Assembly (NCBI GenBank): GCA_040954595.2 | Contig: CM082579.2 | Span: 8,235,625-8,299,624 of the forward strand | DNA: 64,000 bases | Origin: Balanoglossus misakiensis | Taxonomy: Eukaryota; Animalia; Hemichordata | Direction: 5' to 3' | Program-made: the position numbers and the translations under genes | Shown: piece after piece, positions 3,053-44,803 of the stretch | Numbering within the stretch: position 1 is the stretch's first letter | Layout of the letters: every line of letters starts with the position of its first letter | The notes under the pieces: model-generated | The model's input: the letters and a program-made list of their open reading frames with translations, nothing else | The model's database searches: none | What the model was told of the DNA's origin: nothing

Positions 3053-6000
3053 CTATAGATATATACAGACCAATTGAATTACGAGGCCCATCATTGTGCA
3101 GAATAGGCCCATGGGAAACGAAGGAGATGAACTGGCAGAGTCCGATGTGAAAGTGAAATGGCCGAGGACGGCGTAGTGGTTCGATAAATCGGTGATTGTC
3201 TTGGTTTCATCGCACTGGTAGGGGTATTCGTGACCGGCAAAGAACTGCACATCTTCCAGACAGATGGTGAAGGGTTCATCGGCCACGTACTTGATGGCTT
3301 CCTGCGTGGCTGTCTCGGGAAGGAGGTGCTCGTGACTGTAGAGGGCGTAGTCGATCCACGAGTCCGTCCCGTTGCTCGGCGCTATGATGTCGTTGTTGTC
3401 CTTGTCGGAGGTGCAGTTGTGGGGCCCGACGATAGGGGGCGTGGTCGCCCGCAGGGTGTCCAACAGGGCCTGCAGCTCGTCGTGGCGCTCGTAGTAGTCT
3501 GTGTTCAGGTCGCCGGCGTAGATGACCGGCTCGCTCTCGGGGATGTCCTGCTTCAGCATCAGTTCGTGCATCTCCGCCGCTTGTTCTTCTCGCACGTCGC
3601 TCCCGCCGTTGTTCCTCTGGCCGGCCTGCAGGTGGGTTCCGAGGACGTGGTAGACCACCGTGCGTCCGTCCACCGTCTTCTCCACGCCGGCGTACATCGC
3701 GCCCTTTCCCGCCCACATGTCGCCCGACCCGGACACGAAGCTCTCGTACACCTTGCCCTCCCACTTCAGCATCGGCCAGCGGGAAGAGATGAAGACGCCG
3801 CCGTTTTCTGGCTGTGGCAGAATCGGCGTGTCCGCCCCAACCGTGTCCGTGTGGTGCGCGAAGCCGTAGTGATCCAGGATCTGCCTGAACGACGCCCCAG
3901 AGTCGTGGAAACAGCCGCCCATGAACGCTTCATTGAAGACGATGGCGTCGATGTCGCCGTGCCTGTTGAACACCTCGGCGAGCATCCTACATGTGCGCTC
4001 GCGCTGTCCGCACTGATAGTACAGATACCTCAGCTCCCAGATGTTGTACACCAGGACCTTGAAGGTGTGGGCTGGTGTTGGGGTCCAGACGCCGAGTTCA
4101 GGTACAGTACACAGAACATTTTGACCGGTTTGCGTCTTGAAATGGCAAACGTCCCAGATTTCATAGTCAGTAGAACAGGCGTATTCCAAGCCAAACATGT
4201 CGCAGTATTCAGGGGTCAAGTCACATTCGGATGTGGCCCTGCCTGTAGAAATATAATCATCGGTACATGTATATGTATACGTACGTACGTATGAACTATT
4301 TCTTGCATGTTTCAATAAGTTGTAGGCCTAAGTGTAGTTTCTGGGGAATCATGTGCATATCAGTAATTATCCGTTAGCTTGAGACTCGGGGGCTGAATTT
4401 ACGTTGGCTGTACTATGACGGTTGAAGACAGCTACTTACCGAGCCAAACACGTGGTATGTCGTCACGACAGTTCTCTGAAAAAAATGATTACAAATTTCA
4501 GTAAGTTATAAATAAGTATTAGATATTTGGTAGACATACAAAGATAAACCAACAGATATACATGTATAGCGGAAGGATAGATTTACGTACGAAATCTTAA
4601 TTCTTTAGTGCAAACTGCGCATTTTATTAAAGTGACTAACCCGGCAATGGTGGCGGCGAAGGGTTGAGAATTGGGGCCGTTGCTTCCGAGAAATCAAATC
4701 TGCCAAGCACTGCATAATGGTCTGAAAGATCTGTGATGTTCCACGACTCCACACACGCGTTTTCATAGGGGTAGGTGTGTCGACGTGCAGGAAGAGTACT
4801 TCTCATGCAAACCTCGAAAGGTTCATCGACGTATTTGATTGACTCCTGACTAACATTGTTCGGTATCAGGTGCTGGTCGCTGTATATGACGTAATCGATC
4901 CACTTGGACCAGCTGGTGTCGTTTGGATGGATGACGTCATTGTTCTGGTTGTCGTCTGTGATGTTGAGTGGTCCCACAATGGGCGGCATTTCGGCTTCTA
5001 AGATCTGGAGAATCTGGTCCCACTGGTCGGGGGACGTGTACATGTCGGTGTTCAAGTCCCCGCCATAAATGACAGGCTCGTCCGCGGGTATGTTTTGTTT
5101 CTTCATCAAAGTGTGCATCTCTTTGGCTTGGAGGGCGCGCTGCTCCGCGTATCGGTCACCCTCGTGCGCCTGGAGGTGAGTACCCAGGATGTGGTAGTGT
5201 CTGGTTTGGCTGTCGACGGTCTTCTCGATTTTGGCGTATGACGCGCCCTTTGACATCAAACTGTCCGGGGACGGCTCGGTTGTGTGCACGTATATCCATT
5301 CGTCTTCCGCCACTATCGGCCACCGGGAGGAGAGAAAGACTCCGCCATTTTCGGGTCTCCTGTACATGTCCCTGGTGCCGTTGGCTAGTAGATCGGTGTG
5401 GTAGGAGAATCCGTACTGATTGAGCATCTGGCGCAGCGATATGCCGTCATCCGGGAAGCAGCCGCCCATGAAGACCTCGTTCCAAATGATCGCGTCGACA
5501 TCGCCGTGGAGCTCGAATATCTTCTGCGGGATTCTGCAGGTGCGTTCCCGTTGGCCACTCTGGGCGTACAAGTACCTCAGTTCCCAGGTGTTGTACGCCA
5601 TCACTTTCAGTGTTGTCGCCGGTGAGGGCGGCGGTAGCTGCATGTCCGGCGAGGCACAGAGGACGTTCCTCCGCCCGGGTCCCGTTGCCCTGTAGCAGTC
5701 GTCACCTTCGACATAGTCTGCCGTGCAGACAAACTCTAGTCCGAACATAGCGCAGTATTCTTCTGTCAGATCGCACTCGGACGTCGCATTGCCTGGCGCG
5801 ACATAAAACAAAACAAACACGTGAGGTACTTTTGGTAAACCAGGGCGTCATCTTTGGCATTTGAAAGAATGCACATGCTGTTATTGGTTGAGACACGTGT
5901 AGTGAACGCGAACGCGACACGAAATCAACTTTGTTGCATAGTACAAGTAACACGGCAAGGAACATCATGATGACACCAATATCAGACACACACATGATAT

Positions 6001-6612
6001 AAGCATTTATAGCATACTGCCTCCAATGAAACTTACCTAACCACACCTGCGGGCGATCATCTGTACATTCATCAGCTGAGATTTCTGGCAAGAGAGCATA
6101 CAAAATATGCACATGGTAGTGTTTGGAATTATCTACATGATGCGTGTCACATTCCCCATCTATTGTGTTAAAAATAATACACAGCCGCAGTGTAACGCAA
6201 TTGGCTTACACACGAAATTAGAATGATGACCAATATTGGCCTGAATTGGCCAGGACCGTACTTTTATGTACATGTACCTGGAATTGGAGTTTGTAAAGGA
6301 TGTGTGAACTATTCAATGCATACGTACCCTTTTCGTGTTCGGCTCTCCGACTGCAAGTTATCATTTTTAGATGACTGGCACAGTTTTAACGCCCTTTGAC
6401 TCAGTGAACTGACGTCTACAATGCCATACAAACATGTAATGTTCTCACTTCCCTGGTTCCCGTAGAGTACCAAACATTTCTATAGTGTAGCAATCTGGTC
6501 ATTCGTCGTGGTTTACTGTTTTGAACGATGGAAAACAGAGTGCACACCACTCACCTCTAAAAATATGCAAAACAACCAACAGACACACCGAAATCACGCG
6601 ATGGCACATCAT
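3053..6612 (-). CDS. Gene A: tandem two-domain bacterial-type sphingomyelinase C-like (EEP) protein, signal peptide + GPI-like tail, ~827 aa
   Basis: Exons: 6612-6555 (MMCHRVISVCLLVVLHIFR), 6084-6037 (EISADECTDDRPQVWLG), 5792-4641 (domain), 4475-4440 (ENCRDDIPRVWLG), 4242-3053 (domain + MGLFCTMMGLVIQLVCIYL*). All introns are phase 1 GT-AG; total 2484 nt. Motifs YN.WEL, NE.F, ENGGVF.SSRWP, GTHLQA, GDLN, WIDY, S(D/N)HY. Minus-strand AATAAA at 2804-2809. Confidence 0.85.
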
Positions 6613-7465: not shown

Positions 7466-10400
7466 CTACGTAAGCAAAAGTGCGAGGGCGAATACCACAA
7501 CGATGCCGACGACGATCACGTGTTTGACGGGCGCGAGATTTAAAGCTGACGATGTTTGGTCGAGGAAGTTGAAGATGCCGAGAACCGCGTAGTGGTCGGA
7601 CAAATCAGTGATGGTCTTCGTGACGTTGCATTGGTAGGGATACTTGTAGCCACCGAGGAGGTGGACTAAATCCATGCAGACGGTGATCGGTTCGGCTGAC
7701 AGATACTTGACGGCTTCCTGGGTGACCGTGACCGGGAGCGCGTGCACGTGGCTGTAGAGGGCGTAGTCGAGCCACTTGGAGGTGGCATTGCTCGGGGCCA
7801 GGATGTCGTTGTCCTGGTAGTCGGTCGTGTATTTGATGGACCCGGCCACGGGGGGAGTTGTCGCGTTCAGAATATCCAGCAAAATCTCGAGTTCGTCGTA
7901 TCTCGTGTAGTAGTCCACGTTGATGTCTCCCGCGTAGACGACTGGTTCGTGCTTCGGGATTCCCTGCTTCAACATGAGTTCGCCCATCTGGGTGACCTGC
8001 TCCTGCCTGACCGTCCGACTCTGGTCCGTGTCGCCGGCCTGGAGGTGCGTCCCGAGCACGTGGTACACGGCCGCGGTGCCGTCCACGGTCTTCTCGATGC
8101 GGGCGTACATGGCCCCCTTGGCCGACAGCATGTCCGCAGAGCCGAAGACGTAGCTGTCGAACACCGTCTCCTCCCACCCGAGGATCGGCCACCGCGACGA
8201 TATGAAGACCCCGCCGTTCTCCGGGTGGGGGAGTATCGGCGTGTCCTCGCCCACGGTGCCGGTGTGGTGCACAAACCCGTTGTACTCCAGTATCTGCCTG
8301 AAGGACGCGCCGTGCTCGGGAAAGCAACCTCCCATGAACGCCTCGTTGAACACAATGACGTCAACGTCGCCGTGTTCGGCGAAGACTTCCGTCAACACTC
8401 TGCAAGTGCGCTCACGTTGCCCGCTCTGGTAGAACACATATTTCATCTCCCAGACATTGTACGCCAAGACTTTGAAAGTTTTGGCCGGGGTTGGGGCCCA
8501 AGTGCTGAATGTAGGAACCGAACATAGTACGTTGACACCGGTCCTGGTCTTGAAATAACAGACATCCCAGATTTTATACGGGGCGGAGCATGCGTACTCT
8601 AATCCGAATATATCACAGTAATCCGGCGTCAAATCGCATTCTGGAGTAGCTCTCCCTGTAAAAGGGGAAAATAGACACTTTAATAGATAATGACGATAAC
8701 GCAAATACAGTTTTCTTCAGACAAGCGAATAATCACCATGAACATTATGCGTCTACCTGTTTCTTTCCTGTCTCACTCGATAAAAAAACTGCCAAAGGGA
8801 AAAGCGACCGCTGATGCGGGTGTTCCCTGTATTGAAAGCAACGGTTAAAGTCGCTCACTTTTGACATTATTTTGCTTTAGTCTCCAACGATAAAATATTT
8901 GTTTTTCTGCACTTAGAATGTAACTCCTTACCCAGCCACACACGAGGTCGGTCAATGTCGCATTCCTCTACAAAGAAAATAAAAGAGAAAAACGACATCA
9001 AAAAGTATAGACAAAGATTATTTGAACGTAAATGAACCGAGTGAAACACATGGCAACCGACCAGACGAGTATGCGTTAACCTATCTGAATTACATAAAAC
9101 AAAACAACAGCAAACACCCAAAATGACTCTGTTGCATTTGCCAAGAAAGCTAATCTGTTTATATCTTTAACGATGGCCGATCAGTTTTATGTCAAGAAAG
9201 GTGAAGAAAATGAATGAGTTTAATACCAGGTAAAGGTGACGGCGAAGGGTTGAGTATTGGATCTGTCGCTTCCGAGAAATCAAATCTGCCAAGCACTGCA
9301 TAATGGTCTGAAAGATCTGTGATGTTCCACGACTCCACACACGCGTTTTCATAGGGGTAGGTGTGTCGACGTGCAGGAAAAGTACTTCTCATGCAAACCT
9401 CGAAAGGATCATCGACGTATTTGATTGACTCCTGACTAACATTGTTCGGTGTCAGGTGCTGGTCGCTGTATATGACGTAATCGATCCACTTGGACCAGCT
9501 GGTGTCGTTTGGATGGATGACGTCATTGTTCTGGTTGTCGTCCGTGATGTTGAGTGGTCCCACAATCGGCGGCATTTCGGCTTCTAAGATCTGGAGAATC
9601 TGGTCCCACTGGTCGGGGGACGTGTACATGTCGGTGTTCAAGTCCCCGCCATAGATGACAGGCTCGTCCGCGGGTATGTTTTGTTTCTTCATCAAAGTGT
9701 GCATCTCTTTGGCTTGGAGGGCGCGCTGCTCCGCGTATCGGTCACCCTCGTGCGCTTGGAGGTGAGTACCCAGGATGTGGTAGTGTCTGGTTTGGCTGTC
9801 GACTGTCTTCTCGATTTTGGCGTATGACGCGCCTCTTGCGGACAGGTGGTCTGGGGACGGTCGGGTGGTGTGCTTGTAAATCCATTCGTCTTCCTCGACG
9901 ATCGGCCATCGCGAGGAAATGTAGATGCCGCCATTTTCTGGTTGCTTGTACATGTCCCTGGTGCTGTTTCCCACCAAATTTGTGTGGTGGGCGAAACCGT
10001 ACTGGTCGAGGATATGGCGCATCGACAGACCGTCGTCGGGGAAACAGCCGCCCATGAAGATCTCGTTCCAAATGACGGCATCAACATCCCCGTGCCAATC
10101 GAATATCCTCTGAGGAATCCGACAGGTGCGTTCGCGCTGGCCCTGTTGGGCGTACAGGTACCTCAGCTCCCAGATGTTGTACGCTATGACCTTCAACGTT
10201 GTCGCCGGCGAGGGCGGCCAGATTTGTTTCGCCGGAGAGGCACAGAGGACGTTCTTCCGTTCCGGCCCAGAGCTTCTGTAGCATTCGTCACCTTCTACGT
10301 AGTCTGCCATACAGACGAATTCCAGTCCAAACATGGCGTAGTGCTCTTCTGTAAGGTCGCACTCAGATGTCGCATGCCCTGTCAAATGAAATGAAATGAA

Positions 10401-10880
10401 AAAAAAATACATGTCAGGGATAAAGACAGGTGGCGATATATGTACAGATGAGGGAATTAATCACATATACATGTACCTATTCAACTGGTGTTATTGCTCG
10501 ACGTAATCCTTGTTCGATTTTATGATATCTTTTTACTTTCACTTGTCGGGTGAAATTAAACGGGAAAAGAATTAAACAAAGAAATCGACAGACAGACAGA
10601 CAGTGAGACATATAAACAGACAGACAAATAAATAAACCATCGGGGTACTTACCCAACCAGACTTGCGGCCTGTCGTCACCACACTCACCAGCAGAGATTT
10701 CTGAAGTATAGTAACGAAAATGAGATTATACACCCGCAAAATGCAGATAGATTGTTAACCTACTAAATGCAGTGAAGATGGCGTTCACTTACCGGCAACC
10801 ATAAGCATACCAAGCACCAGAACAAGCGCCAACTTTACAGCAAACATTTTGGTGGTCAGGGAAGTTTCACATGTCGCCAT
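7466..10880 (-). CDS. Gene B: tandem two-domain sphingomyelinase C-like protein, ~837 aa
   Basis: Exons: 10880-10793 (MATCETSLTTKMFAVKLALVLVLGMLMVA), 10700-10653, 10378-9227, 8967-8932, 8655-7466 (ends VIVVGIVVVFALALLLT*); total 2514 nt. The four internal/terminal exon sizes equal those of gene A (48/1152/36/1190). Full EEP motifs in both domains. AATAAA at 7410-7415 (minus). Confidence 0.85.
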
Positions 10881-12278: not shown

Positions 12279-15200
12279 TCATGGCATACACTGTGTAAAG
12301 AGAAGCGCGACGATTATCAGAAGAAGAGGTGAAAATAAAACATTGGCAGACGACACTTCTTCGGAAGGGTATTCAAATCGCCCGATAACAGCGTAGTGGT
12401 CGGACAGATCGGTGATAGTTATATTGTTTCCACATCTTTCGTCGTACGGGTACAGATGGCCGATGAACAGTTTGATTCCATCGAAACAGATGTCAAAGGG
12501 TTCGTCGTCGACGTATTTGATCGCCTCCAGCGAAGACGATGTCGGCAGCAGGTGGTCGTAGCTGTAGACGACGTAATCGACCCATTCGCCGGGTATCCAG
12601 CCGCGACTCTCGGCGCAATCTTGCGGGTTCCCAGCGTTGAAGTTTATGTCGTTGTAGCAGTTGTCGTAGGTGACGTTGAAGGAGCCCACGACCTCGGGCA
12701 CGGTCGCCCGGAGTGCCTCCAGCATGGTTTCTAGCTGTTCCGGGCGGGAGTGCGCGTCGTTGTTCAGGTCGCCGCCGTAGAGAACTGCTTCGCCCTTCGT
12801 GATGTTCTGTCTCAGCATCAGCTGGTGCATCTCTTTGGTTTGGTTCAGTCTGGCCTCGTCTCCGCCGCGGTCGTGGTCACCCGACTGCATGTGGGTTCCC
12901 AGCACGTGGTAGTTCCTCGTCTTGCCGTCCACCGACTTCTCGATCTCCGCGTAGACAGCCCCCTTCGCTGCCATGGCGTCGTCGGAAGGGACAATCTTGC
13001 TTTCGTAGACGGTCTCATCCCACCTGACTATCGGCCACCGCGACGCGATGAAGACGCCGCCATTTTCCGGTGGCCACCGTTGATTTTCGCCGACGGTCCC
13101 CGTGTAATACCGAAAGTCATAGTACTCCAGCATCTGGCGGAAAGAAGCCCCGTCCATGGGGAAACAGCCGCCCGCGAAAGTTTCGTCAAAGATGATCGCA
13201 TCAATGTCGCCGTGCCTTCTGAAGGCCTCGGGGAGGATTCTGCACGTGCGCTCGTGCTGGCCATTCTGCCAGTACATATCCCGAAGTTCGTACACATTGT
13301 ACGCCAGTAACTTGAACGTGGTTGCCGGAGTCGGCTCGGAAAGCGTGACTTCCGGTACGGCGCACAAAGCATTCTGGCCCGGGAAGACGTAGCAGTAGTC
13401 CCAAGTGTTGTAGCGAGCGCTGCAGACGTATTCCAATCCGAACATCGCGCAATGGTCGGGTGTCAAGTCGCACTCTTTGGTTGCGTATCCTGTTGGTAAA
13501 GAAATACCTACTTTAGTATAACTCACGGCAAGGAACGGCCCGAATACAGACCATTCTTCGAAACAATAAACTAATAAACTTCCCAGAGAAAGTTGTTCTG
13601 TACTGTCTGAAAACGAGCTCAAATACCACGATTGCATAAAATAAAAATGTCAAGAAAACTTACCGAGCCAAACCTGTGGTCTGGTATCGGTACACTCAGC
13701 TACAGAGAAAAAGAAAGGAATTTTCATTAAATAATAGTATGCATTACAACATTATGAACATAAACGACATGGATACTATGCTAAAACTATCGCAGTTCGG
13801 ACAGTTTTGACAGTGTCAGTCGATTAACTTGGCCCTACCGTGTTGTGATTTGTTTAGTTCGTGTACGTACACGTTCCTCTTTTCTCCAGTTGTACTGTAT
13901 ATTGGAACTTACCGGGAATTGGTTCTTGAGTTGGGTTCGGCACGGGATCAAATGGGCTGCTGAAGTCGAAAACGCCCATGACTGCGTAGTGATCGGACAG
14001 ATCCGTGATGTTCCAGGAATCTCGACAACGTTCTTGGTAAGGGTACTGGTGCTTGCCAAGCTCTATGGGTACGGTTATTTCAATCGGTCCGATCTTAATT
14101 GGTTCGTCGCTTTGTGCAATTGGGAAAGACTGCATACACGGGGCAAATGGCTCCGACTCCACGAACTTGATGGCTTCCTGCGTTGCGTCATTGGGCATTT
14201 GGTGTTGATTGCTGTAAATGACGTAATCGATCCACTTGCCACCAGTTCCTGGATCCTTTTAGTCTCGGTTACCCAGACGCCTTTGCTTCTTCCGATGCTC
14301 TCCAGAAAAAGGGTCTGGGGAAATGCTATTGAAAGCTTTGTAAAACAAAATGGCCGATGTCAGGATTTTGATCATCGCCTGATTGGCTGAGCTGTCAGTA
14401 TGACCCGGGTCACTGACTCTCGACAATGTGTGATTATTTGTCGTATCTTCATATCAAGAGACCGGTACTTGTTGGTTGATGCGAAAGGCAAAAGGCGTCC
14501 TCTGTTAGCATTGTTGGAGAAATTATATGAAATATCTTTGGTAGACGATTGTCAAAACTATTGCAGTGACCCGGGTCATACAGACAGCTCAGCCAATCAG
14601 GCGATGATCAAAATCCTGACATCGGCCATTTTGTTTTACAAAGCTTTCAATAGCATTTCCCCAGACCCTTTTTCTGGAGAGCATCGGAAGAAGCAAAGGC
14701 GTCTGGGTAACCGAGACTAGGATCCTTTCTGATGTCGTTGTTTTCGTAGTCGTATGTGACGTTGAGGTCGCCGATGATTTCAGGCATATTGGCTTCAAGG
14801 ACAAGAAGCGTTTGATCCCATCGGCCATCGGGATCATCCAGCCTGGTGTTCAGGTCGCCGGCATAGATAACAGGCTCCGTGGACGGTATATTCTGTTCTT
14901 CCATGAGTGTGTGCATCTCTTTGCACTGAGCAACTCTGACACCATCTCCCTGGCCGCCGTCACCCTGACCAGACTGTAAGTGAGTTCCCAGAACGTGGTA
15001 GATTCTTTTCGTAGAACCGTCATCTTTCTCGATCTTGGCGTACATGGCGCCCTTGTTTGACAAGGCATCAATCGATGGCCGAGCGGAATTGTCATAGATG
15101 GTTTGTGCTTCTTTGAGAATAGGCCAGCGAGAAGCGATGAAGACGCCTCCATTTTCAATCGCGGTGACGTCAGGCGGGGCGATCGGTGGGAAGGAGCCTT

Positions 15201-23331: not shown

Positions 23332-29431
<6,100 letters not shown>

Positions 29432-33900: not shown

Positions 33901-35161
33901 TGAAGTTGCGTCACCTGAAAATGAATAGAATAAATTTATGAATGAATGAATGAATGAATGAATGAATGAATGAATGAATGAATGAATGAATGAATGAATG
34001 AATACCCTGTTCGCAAACGTTAACTTGTACGTACGTTGAAAAAAATGCGCTAAAACTTGTGGTATACTTGGCGGGAGGCCATTGCTTATACACTCACCTA
34101 ATTTAACTTGAGGTCTTGGGTCATCAGGACATGTCGTACCTATAAATTAAACACAATTGAATATGATGTGCAGTGTATAAGATGTAACTCCTGTTGCTAC
34201 CGACATCTTGTATTCTCTGATTACATTTGAAGGATTTCAAAGTCTCTTACACCTTTCAGGTATCAGTTGTGAGGAGAATACGTGATTGACATAAAAATGC
34301 CATTCGTAGAAATCGCATAACTTTTTTGGATAACATACTTTGCAACAGTGTGACATTGCTTCATTTTGCGCTCGCGACGTTGGCAAGAAAATAATATCGT
34401 GACATTCATTTTCATTCGACAGAATAGCTTACGTTTAGTTTCTATTCTTTTATATTATCGACAGGTAGACGTGTGCAATCTGCTGGACGTTACATAAACC
34501 TCAAGGGAGATATGATGAGAGTGTTGCCGACTATTGTACGTTGACCCTAGCCAGATTTTAGCATGGTCTGATCCGACTGTACCTCCTATCAGTAAGGGCA
34601 AGGTGCGATATACATTGAAGCTATATAGTGTCTATGTAGTGTCGTGAATATGAAGTTTTAAAGTTTAATTGGTACTCTACAAAAACGCTGTAAATCGGGT
34701 GGGCACTATTGGAGATATCGCCCACATTGACCCACTTTAAAAGAGCATCGTCTGTGTTTAACAACTGATGGTGTCCTGTGATATGGATGAGAATGCACAA
34801 CTTCAATTAAACTGTCTTTCTCCCACATAGTACGCTAACTGATTTTTTGTTCGAACCCAGAGACTTTCACAGTACAAAAAACGTATTCATGGCTTACAAA
34901 ACGCGCTGGAGTCAAAATAAGTCAGGTCTGCTGAGTCGATATAAAGATCGCTTCTTATATCCCAGGTACACCATCAGTAGCAAGCTGCGTCTCTTACACT
35001 CAAACTTCCCGTACCCCTTTCTTACAGTTACCGGTTTCCTCAGTGTAGCAACCCCAATGGCATGGGACAGACGGTTCAGGAAAATACTCACCTCCTAATG
35101 ACAGGACTTGGAAACAAACCAAAGCGAAGAGCAGAGCTGATGAAGTCCTTGAGAGCGACAT
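30955..35161 (-). CDS. Gene F: tandem two-domain sphingomyelinase C-like protein, ~856 aa
   Basis: Exons: 35161-35092 (MSLSRTSSALLFALVCFQVLSLG), 34139-34098 (GTTCPDDPRPQVKLG), 33914-32703, 32442-32407, 32165-30955 (ends TILLIISVVLTHVMH*); total 2571 nt. Its 70/42-nt first exons match gene E. Confidence 0.85.
33938..34003. repeat. (TGAA)n microsatellite, intronic
   Basis: Visible directly. Confidence 0.93.
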
Positions 35162-35441
35162 CTCACCCACCGTGCTGCACTTCACGTCCGTCGAAGCCAC
35201 AGCCTTAGTCCAAGCAAGGTAATTAACCGTATATGTACGAGTGTCAGAGGGTGTTATCAGGGCAGCTGCGATTCGCAGTGATGCGGCATGTGATAGGCAG
35301 TGGTGGGTATCAGTAAAATATTGATGATCTAACAATGCAGTGGCCCTGCACTTTGGTATCTGTTGTGTAAAATAAAAGTGGCTGCCGTGTATTACCTTTA
35401 CGCAAGAGGGGGAGACATCGACTTTCGTGCACCCATTTAAA

Positions 35442-35893
35442 TTAAAGGGGAGGGTCGTCTGAACTGCGCGTGCGCGACTTCTCTAATTATAAAAAATACC
35501 ATCGCCATTGTTCCTATTGTTCATGGAGACCCTGCCAACCAATGTACATGTTATATCAAAGTAACTTGGAAATGTGATAAAAAGTAACGATGCATTTATA
35601 AACAACTTTGCACTGCTTTGTGTGCTATGATGTACATTGTTGTTGGTGTTACGAGTTGCGCCTACTTTGTCTTTTTAACCGAACATGAACTACATTTACT
35701 CCCGCGATTCGAGAAAGATTGGAAAATACAAATTAGCAATACATAGTCGTGAAACTCGTTGAGAATAATATGTTCACACAACATTACATACCACAGCACT
35801 TCAATTTGGACTGAGTGGAGGCACTCGTAGGATCTATCAGTTAACGAGCATGTCATTCAGATAGACAAGTGCGATGACCCTCTTCTGCTTTAG
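35442..35893. mobile_element. Possible degenerate TTAA-flanked (Kolobok-like) non-autonomous element
   Basis: Left TTAA-AGGGGAGGGTCGTC and right GATGACCCTCTTCTGCT-TTAG form imperfect inverted ends. Confidence 0.3.
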
Positions 35894-36574
35894 GTATGGA
35901 AACTTTGCGTGGAAAAAAGTGTGCTAAAGTTCAATGCGTCCGACAAAGTCAAAGTCCGCAACGAGCCAGATATATATTTATTAGAAAGGTTCCATTGTAC
36001 AGAGATCACGATTGTTATTATTTGCTAAAGGGGGAGGTTACATAATCGACGACATTGGTTGATATGTAGTGTCATCTGCGAAATGGGTTACCCAGTAATC
36101 GGTCATACATTTGAAGGGCACATTCTTTTGATTAATAAACCACAAGGACGATGCTATCAAATGTTAATTGAAAATGTACCAGTGACTACTTCTACTTGGG
36201 ATGCTATTGTGTCCGTTGTTTTTTTCAATACGCACCCGTAGATATGGGCGGAATAGTACTAGTATTTCATTTGCACACAGCAAACTGCATGCGTAAGCAT
36301 TTGTGAAGCTTAAATTTTGCAATCCTTTTAGAATCATTTGCTCATATAGCTTTCATTATACGGACGCTGATAATTTATTGACTACATCTGTAGAGGTTTT
36401 AGTCAATCCGATGGATTCTTACCACCGGAAGTACGGGGATGTAAGGTCATGTAGGGGTCACGAAAATGGCCTATTGAAATAACTATGTATTACGATGAAA
36501 AACAATATGTTGTTTTCAACTCATGATCAGATTATACGCGTAAATAACTAGCTACAGCACAACGAAATTAATTG

Positions 36575-39500
36575 TTACTCATATACTGTTCCCGCATATA
36601 CAATTGCCACAGCAACGGACAATATAAACGCAACAAAGGACGACGTTGTCTTTGCAGACTTCGATACGTCCCCGTCGACACTATACTGAAAACGTCCGAT
36701 GACAGCATAGTGCTCGGCCAAGTCGGTGATGGTTCGCGGCGAATTGCAATCGTCCTCGTATGGATAAATGTGTCCCCTCAGCAATTTGAGGCGATCCAGA
36801 CACACATCGAACGAGTCGTCGACGAACTTGACGGATTCCTGCGTTGCAGTTATTGGCTTCTGGTGGGCGTGGCTGTAGACCAGGTAGTCAACCCAAGCAC
36901 CGGGCAACCAGTTGAGCTCTTTAGCGCAGGCTTCTGGGTCGGCGGCGCCTTCGTAGGTGATGTCGTTGTAGCAGTCGTCTGTGGTGACGTTGATGTTTCC
37001 TTCGCGGAGAGGGAGGTGCGCCTCCAGGGCCTCGAGCATGGCGTCCAGTTGGTCTCTCTTGTCGTATATGTCGTTGTTGAAGTTCCCCCCGTAGACAACC
37101 GCCTCGCTGGCGGGGATGTCCTGTTCAATCATCAGCTGGTGCATTTCTTTGGTCTGGTTCAGCCTGGCCTCGTCGCCGCCGCGGGCATCGTCACCCGCGT
37201 GCAGATGAGTGCCCAGCACGTGGTACTTTCTTGTCATCCCGCTGACCGATTTCTGAATCTCCGCGTAGACCGCTCCCCTGGCCGCGAAGGCATCGTCGGA
37301 GGGGGTCACCTTGCTCTCGTAGACCGTCTCGGCCCAGCTGAGTATGGGCCACCGAGAGGCGACGAAGACCCCGCCGCTCTCCGGCGGCAGCAGGGTTCTC
37401 TCTCCGACCGTGCCGGTGAAATAGTTAAAGCCGTAGTAATCCATGATTTGACGGAACGAGGCGCCGTCGCCCGCGAAACAACCGCCCATGAAGGCTTCGT
37501 TGAAAATAATTGCGTCGAGGTCCCCATGTCTCCTGAAGATCTCAGGCAGAATTCGGCACGTGCGTTCGTGTTGTCCGTTTTGATAGTAGAGGTATCGCAG
37601 TTCCCAGACGTCGTACGTTAATATCTTGAAGGTAGACGCCGGTGTCGGGTCGGACAGCGCAATCTCCGGTACTGAACACAGCACGTTCTCGCCGGAGAAA
37701 ACGTAGCAGCGGTCTACCGTGTCGTAGCGTGCGCTGCAAATGTACTCCAGTCCAAACATCTCACAGTGTTCCGGCGTCAGGTCACACTCGTTTGTTGCAT
37801 AACCTGAGAGAAATCAAAGAACAAAAATGTCTGATATATTTCTATAATTGCAGGATGAAAGTTATGCTTATTACATGATGACATAATTAACGGTAATAAT
37901 TCAATCATACGCATAAGAATATTTACCAACATAGAACGGTAAAAACAGTGGTAAACATTTAAAACATTAAAAAATACCTTAATTATACTTACCGAGCCAT
38001 ACTTGAGGCCTTTTGTTTATCGTACACTCCTCTGTGAAGAGAGGCATTAAAGTCATTGTGTTAGAAAGAATCGCATTCTTAGAAATGTCTATAATATGCA
38101 GTCTGTCACGAAATATCCTATTCATTTAGATCTTTGCTCGGTCGTCTATTAATGTGTGAGAAATTCCCAAGGTAACTTTGCAGTGGTTTTAATAACTTAT
38201 ATTTTGTAAATGTCAACTTTTTTTTCATGGGGTTTGTTGTTCTTTGGTGTCACTTCTGCGTCTTCACTGATAAATTTCTACCTACCTGGAATGGACGGAA
38301 GGGTCGGCAGCGGTAATGGATCGCTGATGGGATCGCTGAAGTCGAATACACCCAACACCGCATAGTGGTCGGATAGATCAGTCAGGTTCCAGGAGTCTCG
38401 ACAGCGTTCCTGGTAGGCGTAGTAGTGCTCGCCGAGCTGAATGGGAATCGGTATCGTGATGGGACCTATCTGGATGGGCTCTTCCCTGGAGGATATCGGT
38501 ATGGCTGCCATGCACGGCTCGAACGGTTCTGCAGCGACGTACTTGATCGACTCCTGGCTGGCGGCGTTGGGCATCAGGTGCTGGTTGCTGTAGATGACGT
38601 AATCGAGCCACGTGCCTCCCGGCGCGGGGTCGCGGTGGACGTCGTTGTCCTCGTAGTCGTACGTGTAGTTCAGCCGGCCGACGACGCCGGGCATGCTGGC
38701 CTGCAGGACCTCCAGCATCTGGTCCCACCTGCCGTACGCGTCGTACAGATCGGTGTTCAAGTCGCCGGCATAGATGACAGGCTCGCCGGTGGGGATGTTT
38801 TGTTCCTCCATCAGCAGACGCATCTCCTGCGCTTGCAGGGCGCGCACCTCATCTCCCACGAAGTTGGCCGCCTCTCTGAACCCAGCCTGGAGGTGAGTCC
38901 CCAGGATGTGGTACACCCTCTTCTCAGAGCCGTCGTCTTTCTCAATTTTCGCGTAGACGGCCCCCTTGTTCGCCAGAGCGTCCGGGGACGGCCGCACGGC
39001 GTTGTCGTACACTTTCTCGGCTTCTGCGAGAATGGGCCAGCGGGAGGCGATGAAGACGCCGCCGTTCTCAATGGCCGTGAAGTCCGGGGGAAAGTTCGGA
39101 GGAAGCGCGATGTCTTCGGGGTCCAGCGGCAGGAGGGACGTGTCCTCCCCGACCGTCTTGGTGAAGTAGCCGAAACCGTACTGTTTCAAAACATCGCGGA
39201 GGGACAGGCCATTGGCGGCGAAGCAGCCACCCATGAAGACTTCGTTGAACACGATCACGTCCACATCGCCGTGAGCGTCAAAAATCGCCTGCGGAATCCG
39301 ACAGGTGCGTTCGTACTGCCCCCTCTGGTAGTAGACGTAGCTGAGCTCCCAGACGTTGTACGCCAGGACTTTCAGCGTGGTTGCCGGTGTCGCTGGCGGC
39401 AGCGTCCGGTCCGGGGATGCACACAGCACGTTGTGGTCGGTTACGCCAACGCCGCCACAGCTGTGGCTGTTGGCATAGGCTTGTGAGCACACGTAGTCCA

Positions 39501-42500
39501 AGCCAAACATGGCGCAGTAAGAAGCATCGAGGTTGCACTCGGATGTCGCATCTCCTGTAAAATGCAACAGAGACAATTAACAGGAAAACCGACATAATCG
39601 ACAATTTAATGGTAACTGACGAATTGAATAAAAAAATTGTCATGTATTTCTTAAAATATTGTGCCTTACCCAACCATACTTGTGGTCTGGAGTCTTCACA
39701 AGGGATGTCTGGAAAATAGAAATACAAAATAAATCACCAAACGTAAAATACACAAATCATAACATCTTGCATCTGTGGCCAAAAGTGACACAAGCATTCT
39801 TGCACATATAAAATTCAGTGTAATAAAGTAACCCTACTACTATACTGAAACTTTATCTCGAATCCAAAAATCAAAACATTCTACGAATGCTCGTGTAGGG
39901 GTATTGGGGCCCGATACTCTGTTCCATGCCTACACTTCTGAACGTCTACATTGTCGCTTGTCAAATTATAGGTAAATGCAAAACCACGGTCGACTGACCG
40001 TGGCCAATCATACCAAAATCGAAACGACCAAGAACGGCGTAATGGTCCGATAGATCGCTGATCTCTCTCGATGAGTTACACCTGCCATCGTACGGATAGA
40101 TGTGACCACCAAAGAGTTTGATGTCGTCCATGCACACGGCGAACGGGACATCACCGACGTATTTGACCGACTCTTGGCTGGCGTACACCGGCTGGAGGTG
40201 GGAGTAGCTGTAGAGGACATAGTCTATCCAGGAGCCGGTCAGCCAGTTGCGATCCCGGGCGCATCCCACCGGGTCATCGCCCTCGTAGTTGATGTCGTTG
40301 TAGCACTTGTCGCTGGTGACGTTGATGCTCCCTTCCGTCGGCGGAAGATTGGCCTCCAGAGAGTCTAGCATCTCCTGCAAGTATTCGGGCTTGGTGTAGA
40401 AGTCGTTGTTGAGGTCTCCCCCGTAGATGACCGCCTCGTTGCTGGGGATGTTCTGGTCCAGCATCAGCTGGTGCATCTCTTTGGTCTGGTTCACCCTGGC
40501 CTCGTTCCCGCCGCGGTCGCTGTCGCCCGCCTGCAGGTGAGTGCCCAGGACGTGGTATTTCCTGGTCAGCCCGCCGACCGACTTGTGGATCTCGGCGTAG
40601 ATCGCTCCCTTGGCCGCCATGGCGTCGTCGGACGGGGCGATGACGCTCTCGTACACGGTCTCGTCCCACCTGACGATGGGCCACCGCGAGGCGACAAAGA
40701 CTCCGCCGTTCTCCGGGGGCAGGACGAGGTTTTCGCCCACAGTTCCCGTGTAGTATTTGAAATCGTAGTACTCCAGAATCTGTCGGAAAGACGCGCCGTC
40801 CTCGGCGAAGCAGCCGCCCATGAAGGCTTCGTTGAAGATGATGGCGTCGAGGTCGCCGTGTCGAGTAAAGATTTCGGGAAGGATTCTGCACGTTCGTTCG
40901 TACTGACCACTTTGGTAGTACAGGTAGCGGAGCTCGTACACGTTGTACGACAGCACCTTGAAGATCGTTGCCGGCGTCGGGTCGGGCAGGGTGACCTCGG
41001 GTACCGCGCATAAAACGTTCTGACCGGTTTTCACGTAGCAGTTGTCCCAGGTGTTGTAGGCAGCGCTGCAGACGTACTCCAATCCGAACATGGCGCAGTG
41101 GTCTCGTGTCAAATCACACTCATCGGTAGCGTACCCTAGGCACAGAAATAGAAAGTAGTCCTATTTTGTCAGTTTCTTTTAGTCTATATTTGAACTTATT
41201 TATTTGCACCTCCAAGATAGATAATCGATATAAACAAATAATTTCACATCCTACTTACCAAGCCATACTTGAGGTCTCTCGTCATTGCACTCCTCTACAT
41301 TCAAAAGACAGAAGAAAAAACAATCAATTATCAACCTGAAGGTCAAAACGTTACATGCAATTTCTTGTGGTTATAGTCTCTCAAAGTTATAGGTAACCTG
41401 TCCCCCTGTTCAGGCCATTTAATTTATGCCTGCACATCATTAAAACTTTGCCTTTGTAAATAATTGTGTTTGCAATTAAATGTGTTAAATGACAACCTGG
41501 GTAATACAGTTCTATACGTGGATTGATTACCTGGAATGGGTGCTGGAGTAGGATTGGGAACAGGTTCGATGGGTTTACTGAAATCAAAGACGCCAAGTAC
41601 CGCATAGTGGTCTGATAGGTCGGTCACGTTCCAAGAATCTAGACATTTCGCGTCATAAGGGTAGCGGTAGCTGCCGAACTCTATAGGGATTGGCAGCTCG
41701 ATGGGACCGATTTTAATCGGTTCATCGCGTTGTGATATCGGCGAGGCTCGCATGCACGGCACAAACGGCTCCGCTGAGACGTACTTCACCGACTCCAGGC
41801 TGGCGTCGTTTGGCATCAGGTGCTGGTTGCTGTAGACGACGTAATCGATCCACGTCCCTCCAGTGCCCGGGTCCGCTCTGACGTCATTGTTCTCGTAGTC
41901 GAAGGTCACGTTCAGCTCGCCTATAATTTCGGGCATGTTGGCTTCTAGGACGTCTAGCATCTGCTCCCAGCGACCGTTCGTGCCGTACAGGTTGGTGTTC
42001 AGGTCGCCGGCATAAACGACAGGTTCGTCCATTGGTATGTTCTGTTCCTCCATGAACAGCTGCATTTCTCGCGCTTGCAGTGTGCGTATCTCATCGCCCC
42101 GTCCGTCGTCCAATCCAGCCTGAAGATGCGTGCCAAAGACGTGGTACACTTTCTTGAGAGAACCGTCGTCTTTTTCTATTTTTGCGTAGGCAACGCCCTT
42201 GTTGGACACCACACTCACGAGGTGGTTGTCGAACACCTTCTCTGCCTCGGCGAGGATTGGCCAACGAGAGGCGATGAAAATGCCGCCGTTCTCTACACCG
42301 GAGACGTCGGGTCCCGCCGTGGGCGGCAGGTTCTCCGGGTCCGGAGGGAGTGGGAGGGGGAGGAGGGATTTGTCTTCGCCGACGGTTTTTGTGAAGTGCC
42401 CGAAGCCGTACTGCGCCAGCATGTCGCGGAGCGATATGCCGTCAAACGGGAAACAGCCGCCCATGAACACTTCGTTGAAAACGATGACGTCCACGTCGGC

Positions 42501-44803
42501 GTGCTGATCGAAGATTTTCTGGGGGATTCGGCACGTTCGCTCGTGCTGTCCGCTCTGGTAGTACGTGTATCTCAGCTCCCAGACGTTGTAGGCCAGGACT
42601 TTCAAGGTCGTCGCCGAGGTTGGAGCTGGCAGGTCCTTATTCGGCGATGCGCATAAGACGTTATGGTCGCCCTCTCCCCGACACGAATCGCCGAGTCTGT
42701 AATCCGAAGTGCAGACGAAATCTAACCCGAAGAAGTCGCAATACGAACTGTCAACGGCACATTCAGATGTCGCCTCCGCTGAATGGGAAATGGGTATACA
42801 GAAAGTTACATAAAGATATGTTTATATATGCATCCATACCCATGGTACGAGTAACGTTCTCCCAGTTTGTGTACAGAAGGAGACAAATTCTCTCTTTTAG
42901 TAAACAGAGCAATTTTGAAATGAGAGCTGCTTATCACCTATATCAAGCATTGCACTTACCTAGCCATACTTGCGGTCGAGAATCACTGCACTGTGCGTCT
43001 GTAAAATAATATATGTAAGTCAATGACTTAATCATTGTTGATATTTGAATGAAAAAAAAAACAAAACATGCCCGTGCGGATGGGTGGCAGAGGGCCCTGG
43101 AGACATTGTATTGGGTGTAGACGTACTTTATTCTGCCAGAAAACGCCCTCTGACAAATAAGCGCCTTTGTATGTAGCGCAAGTTTTTCTTCTGAAAAGGC
43201 TAGTGTTGTGCCCAAGTTTGTCGTTGTCGCTGAGGGCACACTTGTACAGAGGGATGTACTAGTCCAGTAGTCAGTGCGCAAACCACGGTCATCTTTGTGG
43301 CATGGCCGTGTGCAAGCAAATAAACCCGATGGGTACGTTCATTGTGTTGGCTTCGGGGTTTACTGTTGCCGTGGTTTCATTGACGTCACGCAGTATGTTA
43401 CTCTATCCGACTTGTTCAATATTTTGTTCAATATGAAAACAAAATAATTTTAACGTCCCCGTGTTAGCTGTAAATATATCTCGAGGGTCTCGCCGATCTC
43501 TATTGTCGCATATATGGGCAACCAAAATTTAAAGGCAAACCTAGTAGACGAAGAAGACAATGCAATCAAAATTTTACGAGGTCGACGCCACTTCAAAAAC
43601 GATGCTCACACTGATAACCTGGGAGAGGCCCATCCCCTGTTGTGACAAGGCGTTATCACTATGAAATATGCCGTTGTACCATTTTTTGTTTACCTAATCA
43701 GGTCAATGTACAACAAAAATAACTGTGACGTTTTACATTTTTGTTTTTCGCGACTTCGATGTTCTGAAATTTAGCGTTCGTTCCGAGTTGAACATTAATC
43801 TGTTGCCATTTCTCACGCATTAATCCAAACTTTTGTCTTGTACGTCCAAATATCCAATAGATGGGTAAGACACCTCATTGGTCAATAGATAACCCGCCTT
43901 TATACCGGTACAAACTATTCTCGTGCGCCACTTGCCGCATTGGGCCAAACGTACCTTATGTCGGTGAGGGCGTAAGGTCTTTTTGAAAACTGAAGAAAAA
44001 TCTTATTTAAATGACAGACTTAAAACTCGGCAAAGGTGTGTCCTATGTATTGTTTCGTAGGACAAGATACACATCATACGCTCTTAACTTCAAGTAGTCA
44101 ACAAACTCATGTAAGCCGCACGTGACTGAACCGTGGAATGTTGAAAGAAATGCTCTATCTTGTCTTCACAAATAGACACAGCACTGATAACAAATCCAAT
44201 AAATTAGTATGAATCGACACCTCTACCTCGGAGATGCAGATTGCTGAACCAGAGTTTTACTAAAATGGCCTGTCGTTTGATTTAGGGGGCGTTGCCGACT
44301 TGTTTTACGCTGACTTTTGCGCTGCGTTTCAGAATCGTCGACTTCTAGAATCGTGACACGTCCAAAACTCTTCTTCACGACCATCAAACATGCGATCGAA
44401 AATATTCCAATAAGTGTATCCAAGTCTAAAATTCGATAGCAACAAAAGGCACGCAGTGGCATAAACTTTGTGTTTGTTTCTCACCAGAAAACAAAACAGG
44501 CTTCCATGGCTACTCGTGTTAACATGGGTTAGGAATTGTTAGATTTTTCCCTAATACCGGATAGAATGGCAAAAAAGGCTTAAACATATGTCTTAGATGA
44601 TAAAGTCAAACTATTTCGCTCGCTAAACTAGCGCAATTTAGAATTTGCTGGTGTCTCTAGGTTTGTAACGATGTAAATAAGAAGAGGGACTCGGATGTTA
44701 CCATGGAAATTGGCCATAATCCGAATGGTCATCACCTACCACAGAAAACTGGTCCGAGGACACACAGGGACGCCAAGAGAAGCAAATCCGATAACGTCCA
44801 CAT
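36575..44803 (-). CDS. Gene G: four-domain (I-II-I-II) sphingomyelinase C-like protein, ~1694 aa, last domain catalytically altered
   Basis: Exons: 44803-44740 (MWTLSDLLLLASLCVLGPVFC), 42998-42960, 42778-41531, 41294-41259, 41135-40014 (alternative donor at 39999), 39708-39670, 39554-38286, 38031-37993, 37803-36575 (ends FVAFILSVAVAIVYAGTVYE*); total 5085 nt. No signal-peptide exon was seen in the ~250 bp between 39709 and 39960, and the second domain lacks the usual long hydrophobic tail. Confidence 0.72.

What the first reader, a model, noticed from the sequence alone, without database searches (positions are those of the whole stretch)
3053..44803. Strict type I + type II pairing: single-chain heterodimeric enzymes with signal peptide and GPI-like tail
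Seen: the domains alternate strictly. Type I domains (CRIPQ, NE[VI]F, end in a Pro-rich linker such as PNPTQEPIPG followed by a splice donor) always precede type II domains (CR[ILMV]L.E, NEAF, GASFRQ, end in small residues S-S/S-A plus 15-20 hydrophobic residues and a stop). Each gene has its own signal-peptide exon, and minus-strand AATAAA motifs follow several stops (2804, 7410, 12126, 17470, 23008, 36375). Established: characterised bacterial SMase C enzymes have one catalytic domain and are soluble. Inference: the I-II pair is the conserved duplication unit, suggesting divided labour (different substrates, or cis versus trans membrane attack) in a surface-tethered enzyme.
Basis: partly seen in the sequence, partly recalled or inferred. 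Interest (0 to 1): 0.75.

Follow-up and report, generated by a model that had tools for sequence, protein, structure and literature searches.

The report
Acorn-worm multi-headed sphingomyelinase gene array
A likely acorn worm carries seven side-by-side genes whose exons are predicted to splice into cell-surface, likely GPI-anchored proteins with two (one gene: four) sphingomyelinase-C-like enzyme domains in a fixed order, likely for digesting membrane lipids, and sea cucumbers appear to have built similar chains independently.

Summary
Sixteen sphingomyelinase-C-like (EEP fold) domain exons on the minus strand alternate strictly I, II. Each gene has a signal exon and a GPI-like tail; every domain has its own small exon; all introns are phase 1. 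Database models from three acorn worms show the same joins, including the four-domain one. Type II domains form one clade (100/99) and 16 of 17 type I another. Both types are under purifying selection, and 13 of 15 intact domains keep all eight core residues. Signal peptide and tail are ancestral: single-domain echinoderm and hemichordate relatives have them too. Pairs are mosaic, because same-type exons exchange sequence by likely gene conversion. In five genes the type differences fall in the loops bacterial enzymes use to bind membranes; in two they do not. Sea cucumbers have separately derived two- and five-domain chains. Best reading: a tandem surface phospholipase, likely digestive, built like sucrase-isomaltase. 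Divided labour, GPI anchoring, substrate and tissue are untested.

The parts
44740..44803 (-). Gene 1 signal-peptide exon (phase-1 donor)
42960..42998 (-). Gene 1 small exon before domain 1
41531..42778 (-). Gene 1 domain 1, type I, with Pro-rich linker and donor
   Evidence: sister to P0001 domain 1
41259..41294 (-). Gene 1 small exon before domain 2
40014..41135 (-). Gene 1 domain 2, type II without tail, ends in a phase-1 donor
   Evidence: same junction in P0001 and P0202
39670..39708 (-). Gene 1 small exon before domain 3
38286..39554 (-). Gene 1 domain 3, type I
37993..38031 (-). Gene 1 small exon before domain 4
36575..37803 (-). Gene 1 domain 4, type II with GPI-like tail and stop; three of eight core residues differ
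35092..35161 (-). Gene 2 signal-peptide exon
34098..34139 (-). Gene 2 small exon 1
32703..33914 (-). Gene 2 type I domain exon (modelled: pLDDT 88.6, best fold matches bacterial SMase C)
32407..32442 (-). Gene 2 small exon 2
30955..32165 (-). Gene 2 type II domain exon with GPI-like tail
29362..29431 (-). Gene 3 signal-peptide exon
26655..26696 (-). Gene 3 small exon 1 (alternative acceptor at 26690)
25214..26428 (-). Gene 3 type I domain exon
24901..24936 (-). Gene 3 small exon 2
23332..24545 (-). Gene 3 type II domain exon with GPI-like tail
22384..22453 (-). Gene 4 signal-peptide exon
21316..21351 (-). Gene 4 small exon 1
19605..20864 (-). Gene 4 type I domain exon (94-98% DNA identity to gene 5 type I)
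19072..19107 (-). Gene 4 small exon 2
17571..18781 (-). Gene 4 type II domain exon with GPI-like tail
16931..17003 (-). Gene 5 signal-peptide exon
16087..16122 (-). Gene 5 small exon 1
13913..15641 (-). Gene 5 type I domain exon, interrupted by an inserted element that brings a stop
14260..14719 (.). 460-nt non-autonomous element with terminal inverted repeats and a 9-nt target duplication, inside gene 5
13664..13699 (-). Gene 5 small exon 2
12279..13489 (-). Gene 5 type II domain exon with GPI-like tail
10793..10880 (-). Gene 6 signal-peptide exon (start at 10880 or 10847)
10653..10700 (-). Gene 6 small exon 1
9227..10378 (-). Gene 6 type I domain exon (second subfamily; about 500 nt 98-99% identical to gene 7)
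8932..8967 (-). Gene 6 small exon 2
7466..8655 (-). Gene 6 type II domain exon with hydrophobic tail
6555..6612 (-). Gene 7 signal-peptide exon
6037..6084 (-). Gene 7 small exon 1 (alternative acceptor at 6075)
4641..5792 (-). Gene 7 type I domain exon
4440..4475 (-). Gene 7 small exon 2
3053..4242 (-). Gene 7 type II domain exon with GPI-like tail; SNH in place of SDH, as in P0005 and P0006

Best explanation
The window holds seven tandem genes of a likely acorn worm whose exons are predicted to splice into secreted, likely GPI-anchored chains of two (gene 1: four) sphingomyelinase-C-like domains in the fixed order I-II, which likely cut the head group off sphingomyelin-type lipids at a cell surface, most likely the gut lining, with the two domains likely differing in how they grip substrate or membrane. 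Steps: (1) shown: exon layout, phase-1 splice signals, core residues, two domain lineages, purifying selection; (2) inferred: splicing as drawn, ER entry and GPI transfer, which would put type II next to the membrane and type I outward; (3) inferred from fold and residues: Mg-dependent phosphodiester cleavage to ceramide plus phospho-head group at both sites; (4) inferred: because each domain is a phase-1/phase-1 module of one small and one large exon, one internal duplication in the acorn-worm ancestor made the I-II chain, whole-gene duplications made the array, and conversion between same-type exons reshuffles partners; (5) least sure: gut digestion and divided labour, by analogy with sucrase-isomaltase and maltase-glucoamylase.
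For: Joins: 7 of 7 longer hits (789-1697 aa; Ptychodera, Glandiceps, Saccoglossus) read signal, I, Pro linker, small-exon peptide, II, hydrophobic tail; the four-domain junction matches P0001 and P0202. Inter-domain introns are short and 0 of 9 hold a signal exon. Tails: 7 of 7 are 29-35 residues, best 15-residue hydropathy 2.2-3.4, at most one charge in the last 15, small-residue omega candidates 18-32 from the end; the 9 read-through ends of internal exons score at most 1.05. Enzyme type: 7 of 7 PDB sequence hits are bacterial SMase C; profile E 1e-45; model matches at E 1e-26 and Z 34.8, rmsd 2.4, 279 aligned, ahead of human nSMase at Z 27.0. 13 of 15 intact domains keep all eight core positions. 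dN/dS 0.07-0.26 in all unsaturated pairs of both types. Tree: all 34 acorn-worm tandem domains one clade 100/100; II 100/99; 16 of 17 type I 96/88. In genes 1-4 (and the readable part of gene 5), type I carries Pro/aliphatic insertions (21-30 vs 9 residues; 32-36 vs 17) in the two segments that align with the Bacillus membrane-binding loop and beta-hairpin (roles from PMC9710629 Introduction), while type II of genes 1-5 has an extra Cys-containing loop. Sea cucumbers have multi-domain chains too: P0201 (five domains) and P0205, an unbroken two-domain frame on a 2741-nt contig that is identical to a genomic model for 430 residues and then continues past its donor, as a spliced transcript would. 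Both groups feed on sediment (PMC11470021 abstract for sea cucumbers; acorn worms recalled).
Against: The joins in this species rest on splice signals and on other species' gene models, and such models can fuse neighbours wrongly (old Saccoglossus model P0204 joined two genes through a tail). All 4 domains tested score far below the curated cut-off of the bacterial SMase family TIGR03395 (85-118 bits against 248). The aromatic hairpin apex and half of the edge metal site of bacterial enzymes are not conserved, so the substrate is open. GPI was judged by my own heuristic only. In genes 6-7 the type-specific loop insertions are absent (12 vs 11 and 17 vs 15 residues), so loop-based divided labour cannot be general. 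One Saccoglossus type I domain falls outside the type I clade. Two type II domains have changed core residues. No evidence on tissue was obtained; gut function is analogy.
Confidence: 0.5

Rival explanations
1. Same chains, but the two sites do the same job: tandem domains give more activity per anchor or avidity, and type I and II differ only because of their position and packing in the chain.
For: Core residues are the same in both types. Genes 6-7 lack the type-specific loops. Domain number varies freely (1, 2, 4, 5). The pTM of 0.77 for the full chain hints at fixed packing that could by itself keep two types apart.
Against: 16 alignment columns separate the types without overlap, and in genes 1-5 large insertions sit at the membrane-contact loops. 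Conversion tracts were seen only between same-type exons, and I-II identity never exceeds 57%.
Confidence: 0.3
2. The chains are surface or mucus enzymes of skin or gill used in defence or in ceramide signalling on the animal's own cells, not in digestion.
For: Tandem expansion, conversion and a recently broken copy are also typical of defence gene families (established knowledge). Bacterial relatives attack membranes of other organisms (PMC9710629 Introduction). GPI proteins can be shed (recalled).
Against: dN/dS is low in every unsaturated pair (0.07-0.26), with no sign of rapid change at whole-domain level. Most bacteria lack sphingomyelin (recalled). Tandem catalytic domains on a membrane anchor are a known design of brush-border enzymes (PMC13111337 passages).
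Confidence: 0.2
3. The domains are phosphodiesterases of another substrate (for example glycerophospholipids, phosphonolipids or phosphocholine-bearing glycans) that only keep the SMase C fold.
For: Below the TIGR03395 cut-off in 4 of 4 tested; 24-28% identity to solved SMase C in the structure matches; altered hairpin apex and edge site. The EEP fold serves many substrates.
Against: SMase C stands well above all other EEP proteins by sequence (7 of 8 profile hits, the eighth human nSMase2) and by structure (Z 34.8 against 24.7 for TDP2).
Confidence: 0.15
4. Type I and type II exons are made as separate products: type I as a soluble enzyme by reading through its donor to an intronic poly(A) site, type II from its own start.
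For: AATAAA lies just past the type I read-through stop in genes 4 and 7 (19595, 4628) and in the intron of gene 3; two type I donors are weak.
Against: 4 motifs in about 2.4 kb of intron is near the background rate of 1.1 per kb. No signal exon precedes any type II exon. The donor position is conserved in 8 of 8. Joined models exist in three other genera.
Confidence: 0.07

Closest known systems
Bacterial sphingomyelinase C (Bacillus cereus SMase, Staphylococcus aureus beta-toxin, Listeria ivanovii SmcL, Streptomyces SMase; TIGR03395)
   Same: EEP/DNase I-like fold; central-site residues E53, H151, H296, N16, N197 and the three Asp positions kept in 13 of 15 intact domains; secreted.
   Different: Two or four domains per chain, Cys-rich N-terminal extension, GPI-like tail, introns; hairpin apex and edge site changed; below the family cut-off; about 25% identity.
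Single-domain 'sphingomyelinase C-like' proteins of echinoderms, hemichordates, Owenia and Priapulus (automatic database names)
   Same: Direct relatives at 35-48% identity, with the same small-exon peptide; 27 of 54 near-length hits end in a hydrophobic tail; all 30 named animal rows fall on one side of a 98-supported branch.
   Different: One domain; the acorn-worm tandem domains form their own clade (100/100).
Uncharacterised multi-domain models XP_070553296-299 and XP_070554661 (Ptychodera flava), XP_077984202 (Glandiceps), XP_006818959.2, XP_006818960, XP_077867045 (Saccoglossus)
   Same: Orthologues with the same I-II and I-II-I-II layout.
   Different: Database models with no stated function; I found no paper on them.
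Brush-border tandem hydrolases: sucrase-isomaltase and maltase-glucoamylase (lactase-phlorizin hydrolase, phospholipase B1 and ACE recalled)
   Same: Membrane-tethered chain of duplicated catalytic domains with different preferences (PMC13111337 passages): a working analogy.
   Different: Unrelated folds and substrates; transmembrane rather than GPI anchors; their divided labour is measured, here it is inferred.
Vertebrate neutral sphingomyelinases (SMPD2, SMPD3) and intestinal alkaline SMase (ENPP7)
   Same: nSMases share the fold (Z 27.0 and 23.7); alkaline SMase digests dietary sphingomyelin at the gut mucosa (PMC9626766 passages).
   Different: nSMases are single-domain, not GPI-linked and more distant than the bacterial enzymes; ENPP7 has another fold (recalled).

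Membership tests
EEP / DNase I-like superfamily | Four-layer alpha/beta sandwich and Pfam PF03372 | tested here: met
   PF03372 at E<=0.001 in 8 of 9 domain frames scanned, 5 of them above the curated cut-off; model matches EEP structures
Bacterial sphingomyelinase C | Central metal and catalytic residues (N16, E53, H151, D195, N197, D253, D295, H296 in Bacillus numbering; the Asp numbers are recalled) | tested here: met
   All eight in 13 of 15 intact domains; gene 1 domain 4 differs at three, gene 7 domain 2 at one (alignments)
Bacterial sphingomyelinase C | Curated family score (TIGR03395, 248 bits) | tested here: not met
   85-118 bits in 4 of 4 domains
Bacterial sphingomyelinase C | Aromatic beta-hairpin apex (W284, F285) for membrane binding | tested here: not met
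   The segment aligns, but the apex is a Cys-flanked 15-36 residue loop without the WF pair (feature from PMC9710629)
Bacterial sphingomyelinase C | Edge metal site F55, N57, E99, D100 | tested here: not met
   F and E kept; N57 is G, and D100 is N (S in one) in all 15 intact window domains
Bacterial sphingomyelinase C | Mg-dependent hydrolysis of sphingomyelin to ceramide and phosphocholine | not testable with these tools
   Needs an assay
Bacterial sphingomyelinase C | Single soluble domain | tested here: not met
   Two or four domains and a hydrophobic tail
Animal SMase-C-like family (echinoderms, hemichordates, annelid, priapulid) | Falls inside the animal clade in a tree | tested here: met
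   Nested among echinoderm and hemichordate single-domain proteins
GPI-anchored proteins | N-terminal signal peptide | tested here: met
   7 of 7 genes, best 9-residue hydropathy 2.3-3.6; heuristic, SignalP was not available
GPI-anchored proteins | Small-residue omega site, spacer, terminal hydrophobic stretch, no cytoplasmic tail | tested here: met
   7 of 7 by heuristic; no GPI predictor was available
GPI-anchored proteins | Anchor attached in cells (PI-PLC release) | not testable with these tools
   Needs an experiment
Tandem catalytic-domain ectoenzymes (sucrase-isomaltase type) | Two homologous domains from one internal duplication in a single chain | tested here: met
Tandem catalytic-domain ectoenzymes (sucrase-isomaltase type) | Different specificity of the two domains | tested here: inconclusive
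   Type-specific loops in genes 1-5, not in genes 6-7
Tandem catalytic-domain ectoenzymes (sucrase-isomaltase type) | Location on the gut brush border | not testable with these tools
   No expression data were reached

The most novel reading that the evidence does not exclude
Acorn worms and sea cucumbers, two sediment-eating lineages, each independently turned an ancient GPI-anchored SMase-C-like enzyme into a multi-headed gut-surface phospholipase. Its domains split the work on different head groups (such as phosphocholine against the phosphoethanolamine and phosphonate sphingolipids of marine food): a lipid counterpart of sucrase-isomaltase, and a sphingolipid digestion route not described in animals.
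Probability: 0.25. Interest if true: 0.7.

Novelty: new variant of a known kind. Interest (0 to 1): 0.45.

Why it matters
Characterised SMase C enzymes are single soluble bacterial domains. Here an animal family seems to hold the same chemistry on a cell-surface anchor and has multiplied the domain in one chain at least twice, in acorn worms and in sea cucumbers. If the two types differ in substrate, this is a clean natural pair for learning how membrane-contact loops set phospholipase specificity. It would also give a candidate for how marine deposit feeders digest sphingolipids. The array shows how phase-1 exon modules and type-restricted conversion keep a domain order while reshuffling partners. 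The weight is limited: orthologous chains already stand in RefSeq as uncharacterised models, and tandem-domain ectoenzymes are a known design.

Tried and rejected
Transcripts: the one run search (window 33000-42999) gave 'no RNA holder listed', so no reads could be laid; this says nothing about expression. Whole genome: none held. The protein atlas gave no answer. Earlier scan notes: nothing shown in 3 look-ups. Literature: no paper held all of 'sphingomyelinase + horizontal gene transfer + hemichordate' or 'sphingomyelin phosphodiesterase + Saccoglossus'. 'sphingomyelinase C + echinoderm' gave 3 papers, 2 listed and off-topic by title and abstract. One search listed 25 of 2,684 papers, none with the term 'sphingomyelinase C'. 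Searches listed nothing on this family. No mention in the main text or held supplements of PMC4729200, PMC12768270 or PMC11470021; large expression tables or picture tables not held may still bear on tissue. Three papers on bacterial SMase were not held. Rejected: recent horizontal transfer into acorn worms, since relatives occur in echinoderms, Owenia, Priapulus, Macrostomum and Amoebidium and the named animal rows group together; the deeper origin is open because 126 of 159 rows in that tree carry no group label. Rejected: 'active domain plus dead domain' as the general rule. Rejected: one shared origin of the acorn-worm and sea-cucumber chains, at least for type II plus the sea-cucumber terminal domains (AU p 0.0006, on a quick tree that was not the best tree; the careful tree also keeps them apart). 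Rejected: assembly duplication as the source of the near-identical type I exons, since identity drops to 40-60% in the flanking introns. Rows left out: the interrupted gene 5 type I exon was left out of the trees and entered only with its part before the insertion; searches used 77 chosen rows, not all proteins held.

Full report
What is in the window. The minus strand holds 16 long open frames of about 360-410 codons between 3053 and 42778. Eight of the nine scanned match the EEP family PF03372 at E up to 0.001. Each begins at an AG acceptor and is preceded, 115-451 nt upstream, by a 36-48 nt exon coding C..D.RPQVWL with a GT donor; all these introns are phase 1. Seven phase-1 signal-peptide exons start at 44803, 35161, 29431, 22453, 17003, 10880 (or 10847) and 6612. 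The same scan found one such locus in each of 6 gene-to-gene intervals and none in the 9 introns between domains. So there are seven genes.

The alternation is strict, and the type motifs hold with one exception (DETF for NEAF in gene 5). All 8 type I exons end in a Pro-rich linker with a donor at the same place. Seven of 8 type II exons end in a 29-35 residue tail with small residues, a hydrophobic end and a stop. The eighth (40014-41135) stops right after GRFDF at a donor, 305 nt from the next small exon. Gene 1 is therefore I-II-I-II. AATAAA follows 6 of 7 stops within 350 nt (rough p 0.005). Gene 5 carries a 460-nt inverted-repeat element with a 9-nt target duplication inside its type I exon, which brings a stop.

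Are the joins real? A search of longer proteins gave 7 hits among 2,792 candidates, all from acorn worms: Ptychodera flava, Glandiceps talaboti and Saccoglossus kowalevskii. All read signal, type I, linker, small-exon peptide, type II, hydrophobic tail (P0007 lacks part of its first domain). Two Ptychodera proteins of about 1,700 residues have four domains with the same short junction as gene 1. These are gene models, and one older Saccoglossus model wrongly fused two neighbours through a tail remnant (P0204). The gene 1 junction differs from that case, as no tail is present in the DNA. Identity of 55-74% and gene-by-gene sister pairing with Ptychodera suggest that the window comes from a related acorn worm (inference).

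What the domains are. Sequence search of solved structures gave 7 hits, all bacterial SMase C; a profile gave the same seven at E 1e-45 to 4e-29 and human nSMase2 at 2e-5. A model of the gene 2 type I domain (pLDDT 88.6, pTM 0.90) matches bacterial SMase C best by Foldseek (E 1e-26) and by VIA-align (Z 34.8, rmsd 2.4, 279 aligned). Thirteen of 15 intact domains keep all eight core positions; gene 1 domain 4 differs at three, and gene 7 domain 2 has SNH for SDH, shared with one Ptychodera and one Saccoglossus protein. The roles of E53, H296, N16, N197, the edge site and the hairpin are from PMC9710629 (Introduction read whole, plus passages); H151 is from a reference title there; the Asp numbers are recalled. 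The domains fail three membership features of the bacterial family: the curated score, the aromatic hairpin apex and the edge metal site. They work like SMase C by fold and chemistry, but are not members in the strict sense, and the substrate is inferred.

Two types. Protein identity is 55-94% within type I (28 pairs), 54-88% within type II (28 pairs) and 46-57% between types (64 pairs); dN/dS is 0.07-0.26 wherever dS is not saturated. In the careful tree of 77 rows, all 34 acorn-worm tandem domains form one clade (100/100), type II is a clade (100/99), and 16 of 17 type I form a clade (96/88); one Saccoglossus type I falls at the base. A tree with all type I held together was not rejected (p 0.75, on a quick tree). 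Both types split in parallel into a subfamily of genes 1-5 and a subfamily of genes 6-7, each with Saccoglossus and Ptychodera members. One internal duplication before these lineages parted, then whole-gene copies, explains this (inference). In genes 1-4, type I has Pro- and aliphatic-rich insertions in the two segments that align with the Bacillus solvent-exposed loop and beta-hairpin (21-30 against 9 residues; 32-36 against 17); the readable parts of gene 5 show the same. Type II of genes 1-5 has an extra loop of about 20 residues and two more Cys. In genes 6-7 these loops are nearly equal in both types. This is the only evidence on divided labour, and it covers one subfamily. A full-length model of the Ptychodera chain P0002 gave pLDDT 86 and pTM 0.77, higher than I would expect for two freely moving domains, but most alignment rows covered only the second domain, so this is a hint.

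The pair is ordered but mosaic. Type I exons of genes 4 and 5 are 94-98% identical in DNA, while their type II exons are 68-86% and their introns 22-62%. Genes 6 and 7 share about 500 nt at 98-99% inside type I, against 71-82% in the rest of that exon and 62-79% in type II. Their Ptychodera orthologues show the same pattern at protein level (82-100% in type I, 62-80% in type II), and the type I domains group by species while the type II domains group by gene. Type II of gene 2 is closest to type II of gene 4, while its type I is closest to gene 3. Conversion between same-type exons is the simplest reading; no formal test was run.

What is ancestral and what is new. A near-length search gave 54 relatives among 3,236 candidates, the named ones mostly single-domain 'sphingomyelinase C-like' proteins of echinoderms and hemichordates, with Owenia and Priapulus. 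Twenty-seven of the 54 end in a hydrophobic stretch (12-residue mean of 2.2 or more). The signal and the GPI-like tail thus predate the pairing. A profile search of 1.84 billion representatives found 2,534 proteins at E up to 0.001; of 20 looked up, named ones include Owenia, Priapulus, Macrostomum, Amoebidium and a Saccoglossus entry named 'sphingomyelin phosphodiesterase-like protein 170'. All 30 named animal rows lie on one side of a 98-supported branch in a fast tree, which argues against a recent transfer from bacteria. Among the 200 proteins then held, only the 7 acorn-worm chains had repeated full cores. A last search with an echinoderm-weighted profile (5 hits among 5,778 candidates) found a five-domain Holothuria model of 2,065 residues with signal and tail. 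A cluster look-up gave P0205, an 852-residue two-domain frame on a 2,741-nt contig, identical to a Holothuria genomic model for 430 residues and continuing past that model's donor into the small-exon peptide; I read it as a spliced transcript (inference). These sea-cucumber domains group with echinoderm single-domain proteins, not with types I and II, so chains arose at least twice. The length-limited searches are weak for absence, so other multi-domain forms may exist.

How it most likely works. The signal sends the chain into the ER; the tail is likely swapped for a GPI anchor, leaving type II near the membrane and type I outward on a Pro-rich linker. Each intact site likely binds Mg at the Glu/Asp/His centre and cleaves the phosphodiester of a sphingomyelin-type lipid. 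Membrane-anchored chains of repeated catalytic domains with different preferences are the design of sucrase-isomaltase and maltase-glucoamylase (PMC13111337, passages), and vertebrates digest sphingomyelin at the gut mucosa with another enzyme (PMC9626766, passages). Both groups with chains eat sediment (PMC11470021 abstract and passages; acorn worms recalled). Gut digestion is therefore my best guess. My odds: chains as drawn 0.9, GPI 0.8, sphingolipid phospholipase C 0.65, different preferences 0.45, gut 0.45.

Novelty and score. I found no paper on these chains in ten searches of the held library (listings only, except the six papers opened: PMC9710629, PMC12768270, PMC4729200, PMC11470021, PMC13111337, PMC9626766). 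Most subscription papers are not held, and supplements I could not see may hold expression data. The layout already stands in RefSeq as uncharacterised models. It is a new variant of a known kind: a real, conserved and undescribed architecture with a convergent second origin, but with untested function. Interest 0.45.

Noticed in passing
window 28895-28976 (+): A tRNA-Ser(TGA) gene lies in the first intron of gene 3, on the opposite strand.
   Followed up: no
window 14260-14719 and 22732-22844: Two copies of a small element with the same 18-nt terminal inverted repeats: one breaks gene 5, the other (113 nt) sits about 280 nt upstream of the gene 4 start codon.
   Followed up: partly
window about 658-1590 (+): A convergent neighbour gene with a signal peptide, a Cys-rich start and several short exons; it looks like a DOMON-domain protein (recalled; no Pfam or NCBIfam hit for the first exon).
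   Followed up: partly
window 4725-5225 and about 9310-9810: About 500 nt at 98-99% identity between the type I exons of genes 6 and 7; the Ptychodera orthologues P0004 and P0005 are also homogenised in type I only.
   Followed up: yes
window 3053-4242; P0005, P0006: SNH in place of the SDH motif is shared by type II domains of three genera, and also occurs in some sea-cucumber domains: possibly a conserved change of activity.
   Followed up: partly
P0201, P0205, P0012 (sea cucumbers): Five-domain and two-domain chains of separate origin; several database models (P0008, P0013, P0019, P0020) seem to be cut at the linker donor.
   Followed up: partly
P0062 (Glandiceps): A model that joins a C-type-lectin-like and an LDL-receptor-like stretch (recalled motifs) to one SMase-C-like domain with a hydrophobic tail.
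   Followed up: no
window about 21030-21290, 24640-24750, 48890-49066: Simple repeats (TACA, GA/GACA) in introns of genes 4 and 3, and a short tandem repeat of about 45-nt units upstream of the array.
   Followed up: no
window 9227-10378: Gene 6 type I has Tyr in place of a Cys that the other 14 aligned domains keep near the N-terminus.
   Followed up: no
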